Source: an uncultured delta proteobacterium
Lineage (GTDB): Bacteria; Desulfobacterota; Desulfobacteria; Desulfobacterales; UBA2156
NCBI GenBank assembly: GCA_963736855.1
Contig: CAVTQK010000023.1
Coordinates: forward strand, 64,001 to 128,000
Direction of reading: 5' to 3'
DNA length: 64,000 nucleotides
Made by a program: the position numbers. This document shows, in pieces, positions 39,001-45,000 of this stretch. Every line of letters begins with the position of its first letter. The stretch's first letter is position 1.

Positions 39001-42000
39001 CCACTGCTTATTGTTTCCCTTGAAGAGGCCGCCCCACCCGAAACACCTGAACAAGACGCCCAATCACTCACCTATTATCGGAACCATTACCTCGAAAGCA
39101 AGGATGAAGGAAAAGCCGGGCAGCATACGATGATGATACGGAAGGCCTTCTCCCAGGTCCAAAAAAAACAGAAAAGAAAATATTTTACCATCATCGGTAT
39201 TGTCGTTTGTCTCCTCATCGTAGTCGGCACTTTCGCAACCGTCAAACATTACCAGCTCAAAAAACAGCGCAAGCTGGCCGAGGATATCTTCTATAACATG
39301 AAGGTAATGGAGCTGGACTTTTCCGAACTGTTGAGGATTGCCCGGGAAACGAAAGATAAGAAAATCATCGAAAAAGTCGATCAATACAAGACCAAACGCC
39401 GGGAGATGGAGACAAAATACGACCGTTTCATCGAAACGCTTAAAGTCTATAAAAAAGACATGAGTCCTCAAGAACGACTGATTCTCCAAAAAGCGAGAAT
39501 TTTCGGCGAATGTGAAATCAACGTGCCTGAAGATTTTGCCAGGGAAGTGTTGAGGTATATCGACAAGTGGAAATCGAGTCCGCGCATGGCGGACGCCATC
39601 GATTGCGCCCAAAAAAATAGCTATATCGATATCATCAGTCAAACGCTGGCCACTTATGATCTGCCGCCGGAATTTTTTTATCTGGCACTACAGGAGAGCA
39701 ATTTTAATAAAGACGCCGTCGGTCCGGAGACCCGATGGGGATTCGCCAAGGGGATGTGGCAATTTATTCCTGATACGGCAAAGCGATATGGCCTAAAAAC
39801 AGGACCGTTGGTCAAGCAGAACCGACCCGACCCGAAAGATGATCGACACAATCCGAAAAAAGCCACACTGGCCGCGGCGAAATACCTGCGCGATATATAT
39901 GATACGGACGCTCAGGCTTCGGGGCTTCTCGTCATGGCATCATACAACTGGGGAGAAAACCGCGTGATCGAACTGATCCGGAAAATTCCCGAAAATCCGC
40001 GTGACCGTAATTTTTGGAATCTGCTCGTTAAGTACAAGGAAAAAATTCCAGCCCAAACCTATGATTATGTTTTTTTTATTTTCTCGGCGGCCGTCATCGG
40101 AGAAAATCCCAGGCTTTTCGGATTCGCCTTTGACAATCCTCTGGGTACGATTCAACCGGCTGAGGCCAAAGCAGTGAAAGGATAAAGAAATGAAACGCAT
40201 CTGGATGAGCTCACTTATTTCAAATAAGGAGGCCGTTCAAAAGCTTATGACTGCGATGAAGCCCTATGGCCTGACAGTGGACGGTCATTTTTGGACGGAC
40301 GATGTGAAAAAAATCGGCTGGATATTGCCCAGGAAGGAATTGCTCGATCCAAAAACGGCTTTGTGGTTAATTCTGACTTCGGTCGAAGAAATGTTAAAAC
40401 CTTCCATCCGTTACGGGTTGTCCCTGCTTGCACTGGCCGTTCAGGCCAACAGGGAAACCGGGTTACCTATCACAATCCTGCAGACTTCCGGCGATCCCAT
40501 CTCCCCTGAAACACTCACCACTCCGTTGAAAGCTGCAGAGGTGCTTTCCCACAAAGGCACCGTTCCTGGAGCCAAACTGGTGGCCATGGTACATCAACCT
40601 TTCCAACCGATCGTACCGGAATATCGTTTTGACATTTACGGCCATGAGCAGATCGGCCAGTGGTTCGAAGTCGGCCCCAGACAAACAGACTGGAAGGGTG
40701 CTATGTTCGGCGTCCATGGAGGAGAGATTACAATTCACGCCGTAGGTCCCAAAGGCCGGTTACCCGAAAAGTCGGTCCTTCATTACCCCATGAAAGGGAT
40801 GAAACTGGTTTTAGGAAAAGAAGAATATGTTGCCTGGGCCGTCCAAAATCCGCTGAATCAGGACACATCCTATTATATCAAGGTTGACGGATGCCCGGAT
40901 TCCATCATCTTCGGTCCTTTAGCCGAGAAAGATGAAGCGGATGTTTATATGATGAAACTAAAATAACCTAAAGGATTGACCCGTATGCATCCATACGAGT
41001 CCGCAATGAATATTTTCAGACTATCATTGACAGAGGCATCGGAACCCTGCTATGAAATATTAAAATTTATCAATCAATCTGAGGGATTAGCATGATGATT
41101 CAAGACGTATCGCGAAAAGATCTGGGTAATGAGGAGTTTTTAAGTCTCAGACAGGCGACCGACAAGATTGCCGGGTCTCTTAAAAAGCGCCTTACGGCGC
41201 ACCTGTCGGTATTAAAACCGCTGTTTATTCCTCGAAAACTGCTGGGAACCTACATTCAAAGCGCCTCAAGCGATGATGTGGTGGGTTCGGATAAAGCCTT
41301 TGCCAGGCTTCAGCAGTTATACGCCGCGATCAGCGAAAATCCCTTTGGATTGCGCAAGAAATTGGTTCCCCCGCTGCCGGCAATCTCCAATCAGATAGAA
41401 TATGTCCCTTTTCAATATACGGTTCAATTCAGTGAGGAGGGGGTAAAAACGGTAACCATTACCTCTCCCACGCGATATATTCTATCTTACGAGAGCAAAT
41501 GCCCCATCAACCGGCTCAAAGGGATGGTCTCCGGAACGGAATCCCGACACCCTGAAGACCTGAAACAGTCCCTGATCAATCATCTATGCATGGGAATTAT
41601 GCTCGAACAATTTCCCGAGTTAAAAGAACTTCTTCAAGATCTGAGATACGATGTTGAAATCCGAAAAATCGATGAGCTGGGCGGTCTGCCCGTGGTGATC
41701 CTATCCGTTCCTTTGAAAACCTTTCTCCCTTCCGACGAATTTATTATCCAGGTCACTCAACTTTCGGGAGTTCCGGCTTTTCAAGAGATCATCGACCTGG
41801 ATGCTGTTGAAAACATGGGTGATCCGCTGAAAGACATCCTGAGGCAGAACATTTAGCACGAATAGTTCATGAAATTTTTCAATGATAATCAATTTAAGTT
41901 ATCTTTGACCGCTTGAAGCACTTTTAACTACCACAACAGGGACAGCTCCACCTTTTCACCCGACGGCAAGATTTGACGTGACGGTGTGAGAATAATTCGA

Positions 42001-45000
42001 ACGGGTATTTTCCCTTCAGAATCAGGCTTACCGGTATCAATTTCCAGCATTTCAGGTTCCGGATTTCCGCGATGCTCCCAAAAAAGCCGAAACGCCTCTC
42101 TGATTCGGCCTTTAAGCGTGGCCGATTCGAGCCCTTCCTCAAATTTATCCTGACACCACAGTATCAATCGGGTCACGAGTCCTACCAAGAGCTGGTAATC
42201 GACCGGGGTCCTTCCAGTCGTTACCGCCGAAGGTAAAAACACGAAGTCGCGTCCGCTCACCCCGGCCATGGGCATGATTCCGGCTTTCACCATCTGGTCA
42301 ATCCGATTTTCAGACAGTGCCGTTTCCGCGGGATGCGGATGACGGGGGTCGGTCATGTCAAGAGGCAGGTTTTCAAGGCTTCCCGACTTCATACCGACAA
42401 AACGGGTCGGCCATCCAGTTTGTATGACGCGTCGACAGATCAGGTTTCCTACCGCCCAAACCGGGCTGATCCATAGAGACCGACGCTCCGCAAACGACAC
42501 CTGCCGGGGTTTATTGTCCGGGCCATACGGATAACGAGCCAACAGGCAATTCCCGATAACCCCTAGCCATCGTCCCGCGGGAGAATCACCCAAGATTCGC
42601 CATTTGGCAAAAGATGCATCGTCCAGATGGTGGGGCAGAAATGTCAGCTTGTCCAAATCCTTCCAAGAATTGATCTGGAAAAATTTGGGCGTGATCCAAA
42701 CCATGGACGGGGCAAGTAGAGTTTCTGAAAATTCGGCAATTTTTTTCATCAAATCCAAACATCTTGGGGAACTGTCGAAAGGCATATCCACCAGAACCAG
42801 GGATGGCGGATCTTGCAGCTGTTGAGCCATCAAGAAGGATAGGTTCTCTTCCAACAATTCGGGTTCGCAAGGGAAAATGTCAATTTCAACCTGTCCATTT
42901 GTGCCCCCATGTTTCATGAGCAGTTCCAGGCCCCGCCAGGCCGCTTCCATTTGCCTGAACGGTTCATAGTCGAAAATATTCACCATGCACTGGCTAAGAA
43001 TTCTATCCAAGTCGGATGAAACCGTTCTGGATTCTAAAGGGGTCTTTGATCCATTTTCCGGCATCGCCACCATAGAAAGAATGCTGTCTATTTGTGAAGA
43101 CGTATCGTCACCCGGTTTCCGGGCAATATCTTTTTGCGGGGTCTGAACCTTTAAAGCCGGCAGGTCCGGCCAGGTTTGAAGACCTGTTCTTATCTGATTT
43201 TCGGATAACCCCTTTTTGCCGGCATCCGCCATAAAATCACTGGCTTCCTTGATTTGGCTCAGATATCGGTTGCTCTGAATAAGTCCGTCCGGCGTGAAAT
43301 CCTTTATTTCTTTGAATTGCAGATCCACGCTGCCGGCCGGGCATAATGTCTGCGGCATCGGAATGCGGAGTACAGGATTCAATATTTTCAGGGCCTCTGA
43401 AAGCTCTCCCTGACGGATCCGTAAAGTTTCACGGATACCCGTAGGAGCATCACCGGACAAAAATGTCGCCAACGCCAAGACTTTGAATGGAATATCGGGA
43501 ATCTCCATGATCGGCCCCCTAAAAAGGGATAAAACCGGGGAAGCTATTCGTTATCCGACAATCCGTTGAATAACTATCATCAACCGGTTCCACCATTCTT
43601 TTAATACACCGGCGGTGCCTCCGTCCGATGCGCTGGTGTTGAAAAAAACCTGCCAAACAACTATCGAAACCACGATAACAAAAAGCCCGATTAGAAAAAA
43701 CAATAGACCGTGACCCCGCCGCTTGAATTCAGGAACCCCCGGCCAGGCAGCATTCGCTTTTTCTAATGGTTTTCGAGAATCTTCTTCCATGGGTCGGCCG
43801 GCAACTTCTGCCAAGCGCCCGCCGCTTAAAAATTGGAAAACCGGTCCTCGGGGACCCAAAGACAAATGACTGCCTGGGTGAAGAGGAGTCTGGGAGCTTA
43901 CGGGTAAATCGTTAATGGTGACTAAACCCTGACCCGTCAAATCCTTAACCCAATAATTGTTCTCATAAAAAAAGATTTGGATATGCCGGTCGATAATATC
44001 GGCATGGTTGATGATGAAGTTACAATCATCCTTTTTCCCCACAACCACCGGAAGCATCTTAAAAGACTGAATGGTGGGACCCAACTGAATTGTCAGAGGA
44101 GCTTGAATCCGTGCTTCGGCCGGATCCGGTCTCCGTGGCGGTTCCGCAATCCTGGAAGGCATCTGTTCAGCGGACACTTTTGACAGAAGCGATTGCTTGG
44201 GGAATGGGGGTGACGGCCGATCCGGCGTTTGTACCTTTATGTGGTCTTCGGGGGCCGAGGCCGGCAGAGGGGTTACAGGAGGCTTCAGGGAAAACGCCGA
44301 TGCGTCTTTATCAGGTGTACCCAAAGAAGGTACGGAATACTCAACACCGGCCTCTTTTATCTCGGTCAGAAAACTGATCTTTGGGCCGCCTTCTCCTATC
44401 GTGAGCACATCGCCGTTTTTTAAGAACGTCTCCTTGACCGCCTTCCCATTGACGAAACTCCCGTTGGTGCTATGATCAACGAGCTTGAACCGATTCCCCT
44501 CCCGAACGATTTCTGCGTGGTTCCGGGAGATGAGGGTCAGGTCTTTAGGAAAACGTATTTGGCAATCGGGGTGTCTGCCGATTCGGATAACCGGGTCAGT
44601 GGACTCCTCGACTTTCCCTTTCAGGGGGCCGGCAATGTGAACGAGCTGAACGACAATGACCGGCTTTTCATGCATAATAATAGCATCCGAAAAGCAAAGT
44701 GGGATAAGAAACTCAGAATACACGTTCTGAATGACATAAAAAGTATAGCTTACAGTATGGCCATAATGTCAAGAAAATTCACCCCGATTTCGTCGGTTAA
44801 ATGAAAATATCATTGTCACCTTATATGGGTTATGCTATTTTATTTAAAATTACCAGATTCGTCCAGTCGCTCAACCGGCATCGACGGTATCCAATAAAGA
44901 TCGATTATCCAATTCAATCTCCATACCAATCGTGATGGTACAAAAGGGGAACCTGGACAGGTGATGGGTAAAAGAAAATTTCTGAACACCATTTGGCTGC

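What a model noticed while it worked through the whole genome (the two positions that open the first line are those of the whole stretch)
41928..44675. Naturally fused, divergent TssB-TssC sheath paralog next to the type VI secretion cluster
Besides the ordinary sheath genes tssB (g03687) and tssC (g03688), the T6SS region encodes a 526-aa protein (g03705) on the opposite strand. It joins a TssB/VipA-like N-terminal part to a TssC/VipB-like part in one chain and lacks the C-terminal VipB_2 domain. It follows a two-FHA-domain gene (g03706). The fused form is kept as one open frame in other Desulfobacterales, so it is a distinct family and not an assembly artefact. A role as a regulated or alternative sheath subunit is proposed.
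Evidence so far: Pfam: T6SS_VipA 5-102 (E 4e-7), VipB 165-224 and 234-430 (E 1e-25), no VipB_2. It is 26% identical to P. aeruginosa TssC1 over 144-438. Full-length matches in one frame without stops occur in 8 of 150 sampled Desulfobacterales genomes, with partial matches in 2 more, at 31-45% identity. The FHA gene is next to it in 3 of 5 loci and a g03703 homologue in 2 of 5. One literature search listing showed no natural TssB-TssC fusion in titles or abstracts.
(Added by a program. Inside this text positions count along the whole contig: contig position 64,001 is position 1 of the stretch shown here. "Call 12" and the like, gene names such as g00115 and contig names such as C1 are that model's own, and its searches are not shown. 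The text may have been shortened before it was handed on; [...] marks where a part breaks off. The agent that wrote the report below was given it as the finding of a first reader that could run no searches.)

Follow-up and report, generated by a model that had tools for sequence, protein, structure and literature searches.

The report
Single-chain T6SS sheath paralog, phospho-linked
This gene joins the two proteins of the type VI secretion "spring" into one chain that has lost one of its two connecting arms, and it belongs to a conserved, apparently undescribed family that sits beside a phospho-threonine signalling module, so it more likely controls the spring than builds it.

Summary
Window 41928-43508 (-) is an intact 526-aa ORF with a TssB-like N-terminal part, a disordered linker and a TssC-like remainder. 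A two-FHA gene precedes it. Contigs of related strains from other runs cross the junction without indels, so it is not an assembly artefact.

One correction: the C-terminal domain is not missing. It is divergent, but profile comparison and the AF2 model (pLDDT 87) both find it. What is absent is the TssB N-terminal donor strand and most of domain 3.

The family is large. I found about 20 carriers among 401 sampled genomes of the phylum, and 18 of those 20 also carry a canonical TssC. The FHA gene lies directly upstream in 28 of 34 loci. Kinase, PP2C, FHA-transglycosylase and CsgG/TPR lipoprotein genes recur around it.

Longer single-chain TssB-TssC proteins (about 600-680 aa) occur in other lineages, some beside the same kind of module. 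On a tree of the TssC part, all split TssC form one clade and all fused forms lie outside it.

Best reading (0.5): a phospho-regulated accessory of sheath assembly, not a bulk sheath subunit. Function is inferred. My searches found no paper describing it.

The parts
41928..43508 (-). Single-chain TssB-TssC sheath-protomer paralog, 526 aa (P0001)
   Evidence: ORF; Pfam VipB 1.7e-34 and VipA 1.7e-6; AF2 pLDDT 87.3, pTM 0.86; VIA Z 30-31 to TssC chains and Z 20-24 to single-chain phage/eCIS sheaths over residues 5-516
43140..43499 (-). TssB-like part (residues 4-123); starts at the core strand, with no N-terminal donor arm
   Evidence: hhalign: fused 4-95 = own TssB 45-142, probability 95%, E 3.4e-8. 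Pfam profile positions 1-24 of VipA are unmatched. All 42 aligned family members start at this strand. The open frame extends only 14 codons upstream.
43026..43139 (-). Disordered Ser/Thr/Pro-rich linker (residues 124-161)
   Evidence: pLDDT below 50 for 124-161; composition
43059..43094 (-). Conserved linker motif (residues 139-150, family consensus VDDILxMVAMPGE; D141, L144, V147, P150 invariant)
   Evidence: Alignments. [quoted passage not shown] The long fused class has ALDxLLxMVD. ClpV binding is inferred, not tested.
41931..43025 (-). TssC-like part (residues 162-526), including a divergent gp25-like C-terminal domain
   Evidence: hhalign 99.7%, E 3.5e-26 to own TssC 68-442; structural alignment to residue 517
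41931..41957 (-). C-terminal strand (residues 518-526, invariant last residue W526): the likely C-terminal donor arm
   Evidence: Strand 520-525 in the model. W526 is invariant. Only the pre-assembly monomer sheath crystals 3lml, 6gkw and 3hxl align out to residue 526.
43551..44723 (-). Two-FHA protein with a C-terminal hydrophobic helix (FHA2); probably co-transcribed with the fused gene
   Evidence: Pfam FHA 1.6e-28, two stretches. Hydrophobic stretch GLLFFLIGLFVIVVSIVVWQVFF. Directly upstream on the same strand in 28 of 34 loci, with a 4-nt overlap in 3. Alignment A2: the first FHA keeps GR..SR.H..NG, the second does not.
38731..40185 (+). FHA + SLT lytic transglycosylase protein
   Evidence: Pfam FHA 1.2e-18, SLT 4.1e-19. 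A blastp match to it is in 23 of the 39 related loci (FHA-only matches may be among these). The FHA+SLT architecture was confirmed by Pfam beside long fused forms in L120 and L121.
40190..40966 (+). Conserved unknown protein (unk258): flavodoxin/receiver/TIR-like N-domain plus a beta-rich C-domain
   Evidence: No Pfam or NCBIfam hit. Homologue in 17 of the 39 related loci. AF2 pLDDT 88.4. VIA Z 10-13 for residues 1-140 only.
41092..41856 (+). Conserved unknown protein (unk254), convergent with the fused gene
   Evidence: No family hit; homologue in 12 of the 39 related loci at 52-62% identity
44961..45941 (+). Trypsin-like (HtrA-type) peptidase, divergent from FHA2
   Evidence: Pfam Trypsin_2 3.4e-19; homologue in 12 of the 39 related loci
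45966..47666 (+). Ser/Thr protein kinase with a PEGA domain
   Evidence: Pfam Pkinase 5.6e-58, PEGA 1e-15; a kinase homologue in 20 of the 39 related loci
47687..49675 (+). AhpC/TSA + TPR + CsgG/FlgT-like protein
   Evidence: Pfam; homologue in 11 of the 39 related loci
49635..50174 (+). CsgG/LpoB-like small protein
   Evidence: Pfam CsgG 5.4e-9; homologue in 11 of the 39 related loci
50347..51645 (-). CsgG-like + TPR protein
   Evidence: Pfam; homologue in 10 of the 39 related loci
13796..33268 (+). Canonical T6SS cluster: tssJ, K, L, M, tagF, tssA, tssB, tssC, hcp, tssE, tssF, tssG, clpV (frame broken twice), vgrG
   Evidence: Pfam; ClpV frames

Best explanation
P0001 is a single-chain paralog of the T6SS sheath protomer. 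[quoted passage not shown]

Shown:
- It folds as a complete sheath protomer (domains 1 and 2).
- It keeps a C-terminal strand that corresponds to the TssC donor arm. That arm makes the link within a protofilament.
- It lacks the TssB N-terminal donor arm. That arm makes the link between protofilaments within a disc.
- It lacks most of domain 3.
- Its linker carries a conserved helix motif that looks like the TssC N-terminal helix.
- Its gene follows a two-FHA gene.
- It co-occurs with a canonical T6SS.

Inferred:
- A subunit with one donor arm can dock onto a sheath end, or onto a handshake acceptor, but cannot be cross-linked into rings. It would therefore act at an end of the sheath, as a primer, collar or cap, and not as bulk sheath.
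- The membrane-associated FHA protein brings it to the place where the kinase has been activated by an envelope signal. The FHA-SLT, PEGA-kinase and CsgG/TPR lipoproteins would be the sensing and wall-opening side of that signal.
- The linker motif may recruit ClpV.

Whether it stimulates or restrains firing cannot be told from sequence.
For: Fold:
- AF2 pLDDT 87.3, pTM 0.86.
- VIA Z 30-31, rmsd 2.5-3.8, 305-360 residues aligned to TssC chains.
- VIA Z 20-24 to single-chain sheaths over residues 5-516.

Arms:
- hhalign places fused residue 4 at TssB residue 45.
- Pfam VipA is matched only from profile position 25.
- All 42 aligned members start at the core strand.
- The start codon has a Shine-Dalgarno site and only 14 upstream open codons.
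- The C-terminal strand and its invariant W526 are present.
- The roles of the two arms come from PMC5807055 (passages).

Link to the T6SS:
- 20 of 401 sampled genomes of the phylum carry the family (G000 included).
- 18 of those 20 also have a canonical TssC, against 26 of the other 381.
- In three Maridesulfovibrio records a 481-498-aa variant lies between tssJKLM and a vgrG operon. In the one genome tested (G005) a canonical TssC is present too.
- In L012 and L016 it also abuts a vgrG-DUF2169-pentapeptide-DUF3540-PAAR-like operon.

Link to phospho-signalling:
- The FHA gene is directly upstream in 28 of 34 loci.
- PP2C was confirmed in L013 and L016. Kinase, trypsin and CsgG/TPR genes recur.
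- A long fused form in an unrelated metagenome locus (L121) is followed by FHA-SLT, PP2C, a kinase, a CsgG-like gene and a TPR gene. Another (L120) is followed by FHA-SLT.

Constraint: 23 invariant columns among 42 sequences of 32-68% identity.
Against: - No experiment and no expression data exist; no RNA run was listed.
- Three carriers show no canonical TssC (G353, G161, G003). G353 and G161 also lack TssK, at 99% and 98% completeness. The gene can therefore persist without a canonical sheath.
- In most loci the core T6SS genes are not within 10 kb.
- No conserved Thr was found in the family. The residue three positions before the linker motif is mostly Ser, which fits FHA binding poorly. 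The preference of FHA domains for phospho-Thr is recalled, not tested.
- The window lacks the PP2C gene that relatives have at this place.
- The window's ClpV frame is broken twice, so this T6SS may not be fully functional in this genome.
- The C-terminal arm and the fold are predictions.
- Genome searches scored only three candidates per genome, so counts may miss copies.
Confidence: 0.5

Rival explanations
1. It has a T6SS-independent function. The single-chain sheath protomer would be the output of an envelope or peptidoglycan-stress phospho-signalling module. It could form a membrane-tethered protofilament or scaffold, linked only through its C-terminal arm, that works with the FHA-SLT wall-remodelling enzyme.
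For: - Three carriers have no canonical TssC, and two of them have no TssK.
- Tandem pairs of fused genes (532-545 aa + 613-628 aa) in 6 metagenome loci have no T6SS core gene within the flanks seen.
- The neighbours are wall-related: SLT, LysM, polysaccharide deacetylase, PG_binding.
- With one donor arm left, linear polymers are conceivable (inference from PMC5807055).
Against: - 18 of 20 carriers have a canonical sheath, against 26 of 381 non-carriers.
- The gene lies next to tssJKLM, vgrG operons or tssB-tssC-hcp in several lineages.
- The flanks of metagenome loci are short, so a T6SS elsewhere in those genomes is not excluded.
Confidence: 0.2
2. It is an alternative bulk sheath subunit. 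It would replace or co-polymerise along the whole length with TssB/TssC around the same Hcp tube under certain conditions.
For: It has a full sheath-protomer fold, sits in the same region as a complete T6SS and is conserved.
Against: - It lacks the N-terminal donor strand needed for the link between protofilaments (PMC5807055).
- It lacks most of domain 3.
- It scores far below the NCBIfam equivalog cut-offs: 105 against 271.5 bits for TssC, and 22 against 97 bits for TssB.
- It is encoded with regulators, not with hcp or tssE.
Confidence: 0.12
3. It is a ClpV adaptor or decoy. The conserved linker helix binds the ClpV N-domain as the TssC N-terminal helix does. That would either recruit the unfoldase to the assembly site or titrate it.
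For: - The linker motif is invariant at four positions.
- It resembles the own TssC N-terminal helix and the EAEC TssC2 helix peptide (PMC5048182).
- The same motif occurs in the long fused class.
Against: The resemblance was judged by eye only, and no binding test was run. A whole sheath fold is more than a ClpV-binding peptide needs. The motif could instead pack in cis, or bind another partner.
Confidence: 0.1
4. It is a decaying relic of a duplicated tssBC pair with no function.
For: Pfam scores for the TssB part are weak. The window's T6SS shows broken frames.
Against: - The frame is intact in 107 of the 120 listed relatives, at 98% or more coverage.
- There are 23 invariant columns and conserved synteny.
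- Related strains show no indels.
- The predicted fold is of high confidence.
Confidence: 0.02

Closest known systems
Canonical T6SS sheath TssB/TssC (VipA/VipB, HsiB1/HsiC1; structures 3j9g, 5n8n, 5urw/5urx, 9n4v)
   Same: Same protomer fold: Z 30-31 for the TssC part. Sequence homology to both subunits. A C-terminal strand is present. A TssC-N-helix-like motif is kept.
   Different: It is one chain, not two. It has no TssB N-terminal donor strand, and domain 3 is reduced to a 38-residue disordered linker. Identity to the own TssC is 21%. It scores below the NCBIfam equivalog cut-offs. It is encoded with FHA/kinase genes, not with hcp/tssE. It lies outside the clade of all 45 split TssC sampled.
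Longer natural single-chain TssB-TssC proteins (about 590-685 aa; NCBI names some 'contractile sheath large subunit', in Candidatus Poribacteria and Zixibacteria records)
   Same: Same gene order in one chain and the same linker motif (ALDxLLxMVD). Some lie beside FHA-SLT, PP2C, kinase and CsgG/TPR genes (L120, L121), or next to tssB-tssC-hcp (L055, L081).
   Different: They are 70-150 residues longer. Pfam VipA is matched from profile positions 6-18 in several (L121, L120, L062, L046), so an N-terminal arm may be present. VipB_2 is detectable in some. They form separate branches on the tree. I found them undescribed in print too.
T6SS threonine phosphorylation pathway (PpkA / PppA / Fha1 with TagQRST), as summarised in PMC13584744 and PMC5995506 (listing, abstract, passages)
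   Same: A Ser/Thr kinase, a PP2C (in relatives), FHA proteins and envelope lipoproteins lie next to a T6SS. An ABC ATPase plus an FtsX-type permease lie upstream of the T6SS cluster at 8915-10859; their likeness to TagT/TagS is recalled.
   Different: The FHA protein here has two FHA domains and no T6SS_FHA_C domain. The module includes a sheath-fold protein, an FHA-SLT fusion and a trypsin-like peptidase. None of these is listed among accessory factors in the passages I read of the 2026 review.
Extra sheath paralogs of extracellular contractile injection systems (Afp3/Afp4, Pvc3/Pvc4) that sit in the layers next to the baseplate (recalled; only the PDB entry titles 6rao, 6j0n, 9qgl were seen)
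   Same: They set a precedent that a contractile machine can carry a specialised sheath-fold paralog at one end of the sheath and not along its length.
   Different: Those are part of the structural operon and are not tied to phospho-signalling. Sequence identity is about 10-15%. No such paralog is known for the T6SS.
Sheath-binding T6SS accessory factors (TssA, TagA/TsmA, TagB/TsmB, TagJ), from passages of PMC13584744
   Same: The proposed role is the same: modulating the start, end or stability of the sheath.
   Different: None of them has a sheath fold, and there is no homology.

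Membership tests
Canonical T6SS sheath (TssB + TssC) | Sheath protomer fold (domains 1 and 2) | tested here: met
   VIA Z 30-31 to TssC chains and Z 20-24 to single-chain sheaths over residues 5-516. This rests on a predicted model.
Canonical T6SS sheath (TssB + TssC) | Two separate polypeptides from adjacent genes | tested here: not met
   One ORF; confirmed in contigs of other runs
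Canonical T6SS sheath (TssB + TssC) | TssB N-terminal donor beta-strand (handshake link between protofilaments) | tested here: not met
   Only 3-5 residues precede the core strand, whereas the window's TssB has about 28.
Canonical T6SS sheath (TssB + TssC) | TssC C-terminal donor beta-strand (link within a protofilament) | tested here: met
   Strand 520-525 and invariant W526. Only pre-assembly monomer sheaths align out to residue 526. This is a prediction only.
Canonical T6SS sheath (TssB + TssC) | C-terminal gp25-like domain (Pfam VipB_2) | tested here: inconclusive
   No Pfam hit. But hhalign reaches TssC 442 and structural alignment reaches residue 517.
Canonical T6SS sheath (TssB + TssC) | NCBIfam equivalog scores (TIGR03355, TIGR03358) | tested here: not met
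   105.4 against 271.5 bits; 22.2 against 97.25 bits
Canonical T6SS sheath (TssB + TssC) | Domain 3 with a ClpV-binding N-terminal helix of TssC | tested here: inconclusive
   Most of domain 3 is absent. A helix-like conserved motif is kept in the linker. Binding was not tested.
Canonical T6SS sheath (TssB + TssC) | Polymerises around Hcp and contracts | not testable with these tools
   Needs biochemistry or cryo-EM
T6SS threonine phosphorylation pathway | Ser/Thr kinase, PP2C phosphatase and FHA protein encoded with a T6SS | tested here: inconclusive
   The kinase and FHA proteins are in the window. PP2C is not at this locus in the window but is there in relatives L013, L016 and L121.
T6SS threonine phosphorylation pathway | TagH/Fha1-type FHA protein (FHA + T6SS_FHA_C) | tested here: not met
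   FHA2 has two FHA stretches and no PF20232 hit. It matches TIGR03354 at 64.6 against 120.25 bits.
Phage / eCIS single-chain tail sheath | Single chain with sheath fold and both N- and C-terminal arms | tested here: not met
   Fold and single chain are met, but the N-terminal arm is absent. No phage-sheath Pfam family hit. Identity is 8-15%.

The most novel reading that the evidence does not exclude
Single-chain TssB-TssC proteins are an old, diverse lineage of the T6SS sheath. They either predate the split into TssB and TssC or arose once, long ago. This lineage has been taken over as the output of a phospho-threonine signalling module. In that role the one-armed protomer is a phosphorylation-gated primer or cap that decides where and when a sheath grows. 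In genomes without a T6SS, it would instead be a membrane-tethered polymer of its own.
Probability: 0.25. Interest if true: 0.9.

Novelty: new variant of a known kind. Interest (0 to 1): 0.72.

Why it matters
T6SS sheath assembly is thought to need only TssB, TssC and a few non-homologous helpers. A conserved sheath-fold paralog that has lost exactly one of the two handshake arms, and that is wired to kinase/FHA signalling, would be a new kind of control element for a contractile machine. It would also be a natural experiment on how the handshake network works.

The fused families also bear on how the two-gene T6SS sheath arose from one-gene phage sheaths. On my tree all split TssC form one clade and all fused forms lie outside it.

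The family is common in sulfate-reducing and syntrophic Thermodesulfobacteriota. T6SS biology in those groups is almost unstudied.

Tried and rejected
- **Complex prediction.** Complex prediction of FHA2 (residues 1-300, alignment A2) with the fused protein (A1) gave 'no answer': runs 0.41, 0.00, 0.01, against a mark of 0.32. This counts neither for nor against binding.
- **Longer fusions.** A search for longer proteins containing the module (922-2630 aa) found none. That is weak evidence only.
- **Cluster members.** Organism names of the long class therefore come from the names column.
- **Expression.** No RNA holder was listed among sequencing runs, so nothing can be said on expression.
- **Atlas searches.** For unk258 the only lead was TIR-like at 0.87, below the 0.9 line. 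For unk254 there was nothing.
- **Fold of unk258.** The N-domain has a generic flavodoxin/receiver/TIR-like fold (Z 10-13). Foldseek rows have TM about 0.3 and mix EF-Tu and TIR-APAZ chains. No function follows.
- **unk528 as a split gene.** I tested whether the window's 11105-12691 and 12631-13512 ORFs are one gene broken by a frameshift, using the 738- and 784-aa homologues of L055 and L081. tblastn matched only the first ORF, so this is unresolved.
- **eCIS paralogs.** A paper search for the position of Afp4/Pvc4 gave no usable passage. That comparison is recalled.
- **Assembly artefact or chance ORF.** Rejected.
- **Earlier scan notes.** Searches by place and by sequence gave nothing.

Full report
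**What is in the window**

The ORF at 41928..43508 on the minus strand encodes 526 residues. It starts at an ATG that has an AGGGGG site 6 nt upstream. The stop of the preceding gene is 42 nt upstream, and the open frame extends only 14 codons further up.

Pfam finds VipB at E 1.7e-34 (two stretches, best 234-430). It finds T6SS_VipA at E 1.7e-6, which is 28.4 bits against a cut-off of 24, for residues 5-102 matched to profile positions 25-129 of 155. NCBIfam's equivalog models for TssC and TssB match far below their cut-offs: 105 against 271.5 bits, and 22 against 97 bits. The best solved relative by sequence is P. aeruginosa TssC1, chain 5n8n_B, at E 4.9e-20 over residues 159-429.

The gene upstream (43551..44723, or from the ATG at 44675) has two FHA stretches and a C-terminal hydrophobic helix.

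A complete T6SS cluster lies at 13796-33268 on the plus strand. It includes an ordinary tssB (22775-23311) and tssC (23327-24811). In the whole 3.9-Mb genome only these two loci match the fused protein.

**The fusion is real**

Contigs of related strains from other sequencing runs cross the junction without any indel. X1 covers 41342-44914 with 66 substitutions and no gap. X2 covers 42632-43434 with no gap.

**Anatomy**

An AlphaFold2 model built on a 42-sequence alignment has mean pLDDT 87.3 and pTM 0.86. The only disordered stretch is 124-161.

- TssC chains of solved sheaths align at Z 30-31 (rmsd 2.5-3.8, 305-360 residues) over model residues about 154-517.
- Single-chain sheaths of phages, pyocins and extracellular injection systems align at Z 20-24 over residues 5-516. 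The TssB-like part therefore takes the place of the N-terminal part of a one-chain sheath.
- Profile comparison with the window's own proteins aligns fused 4-95 to TssB 45-142 (95%, E 3.4e-8), and fused 161-486 to TssC 68-442 (99.7%, E 3.5e-26).

Three things follow.

It is too divergent for the Pfam model. The alignment runs 60 residues into the region that is VipB_2 in the own TssC (from residue 380). The model has two helices and three strands there.

Second, the TssB N-terminal arm is missing. The window's TssB has about 28 residues before the strand LPLKLLIMGDF. The fused protein has five residues before IPFKVLALATF. All 42 aligned family members start at this point.

Third, most of domain 3 is replaced by a Ser/Thr/Pro-rich linker. 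That linker still holds a strongly conserved motif (consensus VDDILxMVAMPGE; D141, L144, V147 and P150 invariant). [quoted passage not shown]

The last residue, W526, is invariant. Only the crystal structures of unassembled sheath monomers (3lml, 6gkw, 3hxl) align out to residue 526. This is what one expects if residues 518-526 are the C-terminal donor arm folded back in the monomer.

According to PMC5807055 (passages), the TssC C-terminal strand links subunits within a protofilament. The TssB N-terminal strand links protofilaments within a disc. This protein keeps the first link and has lost the second.

**The family and its distribution**

- The word-indexed protein search returned 129 relatives. 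Of the 120 listed, 107 cover at least 98% of the query at 503-539 aa and 32-68% identity. The source names are 'ImpC', 'contractile sheath large subunit' or 'hypothetical'.
- A scan of one genome per species gave 39 loci. They come from Desulfobacterales, Syntrophaceae and Desulfatiglandales, plus Maridesulfovibrio for a 481-498-aa variant at 30-32% identity.
- In 401 genomes sampled evenly from the phylum, 20 (the window's genome included) hold a strong match at E below 1e-100. One more holds a fragment.
- Of those 20 carriers, 18 also show a canonical TssC. Among the other 381 genomes, 26 do. Only three candidates per genome were scored in that search.
- The exceptions matter. G353 and G161 (99% and 98% complete) show neither TssK nor a canonical TssC. 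G003 has TssK but neither TssF nor a canonical TssC.

**Gene neighbourhood**

I mapped ORFs of the 39 related loci against the window's proteins.

- The two-FHA gene lies directly upstream on the same strand in 28 of the 34 loci whose fused ORF scored above 200 bits. In three of them it overlaps the fused gene by 4 nt.
- An operon runs divergently from the FHA gene in many loci: a 242-245-aa gene, a trypsin-like peptidase, a Ser/Thr kinase, an AhpC/TPR/CsgG-like protein and a CsgG-like protein. The 242-245-aa gene is a PP2C phosphatase in the two loci I scanned, L013 and L016.
- Two conserved unknown genes (unk254, unk258) converge on the fused gene from downstream, in 12 and 17 loci.
- blastp matches to the window's FHA-SLT protein occur in 23 loci, and kinase matches in 20.
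- In L012, L016 and the three Maridesulfovibrio loci, unk258 ends a vgrG / DUF2169-pentapeptide / pentapeptide / DUF3540 / PAAR-like operon. This matches the class III Tvp spike-loading set of PMC13373197 (passages).
- In Maridesulfovibrio the other neighbour is tssJ-K-L-M.
- Core T6SS genes are otherwise mostly more than 10 kb away.
- The window lacks the PP2C at this place. The only PP2C match in the genome is on another contig.

In the FHA protein, the first FHA domain keeps the GR..SR.H..NG residues. That these are the phospho-threonine pocket is recalled. The second domain has GK..LD.HA..LTG instead. Most relatives end in a basic amphipathic tail (for example KGAKALFKKFLRR) where the window's protein has a hydrophobic helix. 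I read this as membrane association; that is an inference.

**A wider superfamily**

The exhaustive profile search counted 745 representative proteins at E 1e-30 or better. Below the roughly 450-560-aa family, it listed proteins of 598-645 aa that match the profile from end to end.

- These carry VipA (E 1e-16 to 1e-25) and VipB (1e-49 to 1e-81), and sometimes VipB_2.
- NCBI names some of them as the sheath large subunit of Candidatus Poribacteria or Zixibacteria.
- Among 80 metagenome loci fetched with their alignment, 15 hold a single ORF of at least 560 aa that spans both parts. The rest are ordinary tssB-tssC pairs, except two loci without an ORF match.
- Six of the 15 have a second fused gene of 532-545 aa directly upstream.
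- Three further loci have a fused gene of 594-656 aa near, and on the opposite strand to, a normal tssB-tssC pair; in L055 and L081 that pair is followed by hcp.
- L120 has FHA-SLT right after the fused gene.
- L121 has FHA-SLT, PP2C, a kinase, a CsgG-like gene and a TPR gene after it.

So the link between a one-chain sheath protomer and this signalling set recurs in a distant branch.

**Tree of the TssC-like part**

I built a tree from 132 rows and 399 columns, with IQ-TREE quick search, LG+G4 and SH-aLRT support. Twelve near rows of a first 102-row tree were dropped to keep the size down.

- All 45 split TssC fall in one clade (support 100).
- The short family, together with the 452-501-aa forms, falls on one side of a branch (support 99).
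- The long, tandem and divergent fused forms lie between these two groups.
- The fused-or-split state needs a single change on the tree.

The root is unknown. My canonical sample is of subtype i only. The tree therefore says that fusion or fission happened rarely and long ago, but not in which direction.

**What it most likely does**

The fold, the one remaining donor arm, the strong co-occurrence with a T6SS and the fixed pairing with FHA/kinase/PP2C genes fit one reading best. That reading is an accessory protomer that acts at an end of the sheath, as a primer, collar or cap, under phospho-threonine control.

The FHA-SLT enzyme and the lipoproteins would be the envelope side of the same switch. 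I put this at 0.5. Its direction (activator or brake) and every binding step are inferred.

A T6SS-independent polymer or scaffold is the main rival (0.2), because a few carriers lack a canonical sheath. A bulk alternative sheath (0.12) is hard to square with the missing arm. A ClpV adaptor role (0.1) rests only on the look of the motif.

The one complex prediction I could run (FHA protein with fused protein) gave no answer.

**Novelty**

Five literature searches (and passages of the 2026 review of T6SS accessory factors, PMC13584744) showed no natural TssB-TssC fusion and no sheath-fold accessory. The hits for 'fused TssB' appear, from their titles and abstracts, to be ordinary T6SS studies; I did not read those passages. 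The library lacks most subscription journals.

Two earlier notes of this scan, on other genomes, describe the same family and a kinase-FHA giant ending in a sheath protomer. They agree with this reading but are unchecked AI notes, not independent evidence.

Noticed in passing
window 28581-31217 (+): clpV is read in three ORFs (frames 0, 2, 0). Contigs of related strains carry an extra C behind 29304 (X1, X2). They also lack one base at 30421-30423 (X1, X2, X4), which would give one continuous frame. The window's ClpV is therefore either a pseudogene or carries two assembly indels.
   Followed up: partly
window 35670-38376: This 2707-bp stretch is skipped in contigs of runs X1, X2 and X4 (joint 35669 to 38377). 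It holds the ORFs 36137-37300 and 37261-38277 (no family hit) and the end of 35558-36133. It is a strain-specific insertion between the vgrG-linked peptidoglycan-binding genes and the FHA-SLT gene.
   Followed up: no
window 33176-33177, 35213-35218, 35495: There are further single-base differences in length against contigs of related strains. One lies in the 3' end of vgrG.
   Followed up: no
L048-L054 (metagenome loci), e.g. L048:7282-8919 and L048:9947-11794: These loci hold tandem pairs of single-chain sheath genes. A 532-545-aa one matches VipA only from profile position 17-26 (scanned in L048 and L053). A 613-628-aa one follows it. No T6SS core gene is within the flanks. In L051 and L053 the long fused gene is followed by a conserved set of unknown proteins of about 1019, 380-391, 174-183 and 907-911 aa.
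   Followed up: partly
L055:5643-9543 and the matching region of L081: A long fused sheath gene is followed by a 738-784-aa homologue of the window's ORF 11105-12691, the first gene of the window's T6SS cluster (no family hit). The pair is divergent from tssB-tssC-hcp.
   Followed up: partly
window 40190-40966 (+): unk258 is predicted with pLDDT 88.4. It has a flavodoxin/receiver/TIR-like N-domain (Z 10-13, residues 1-140) joined to a beta-rich C-domain. In five related loci it is the last gene of a vgrG-Tvp-PAAR-like operon.
   Followed up: partly
window 5823-10859 (+): A TolC-like gene, a HlyD-like gene, an ABC ATPase and a MacB/FtsX-type permease lie directly upstream of the T6SS cluster. 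The last two recall TagT/TagS of the P. aeruginosa TagQRST set; that likeness is recalled and was not tested.
   Followed up: no
L013:11708-13243 and L039:13925-15175: In L013 an FHA-GAF-adenylate/guanylate cyclase protein lies directly downstream of the fused gene. In L039 a Cache-cyclase gene is nearby. A cyclic-nucleotide branch may belong to the same module.
   Followed up: no
window 44724-44960: The window has no PP2C gene between the FHA gene and the trypsin-like gene, where relatives have one. The only PP2C match in the genome is on contig 8.
   Followed up: yes
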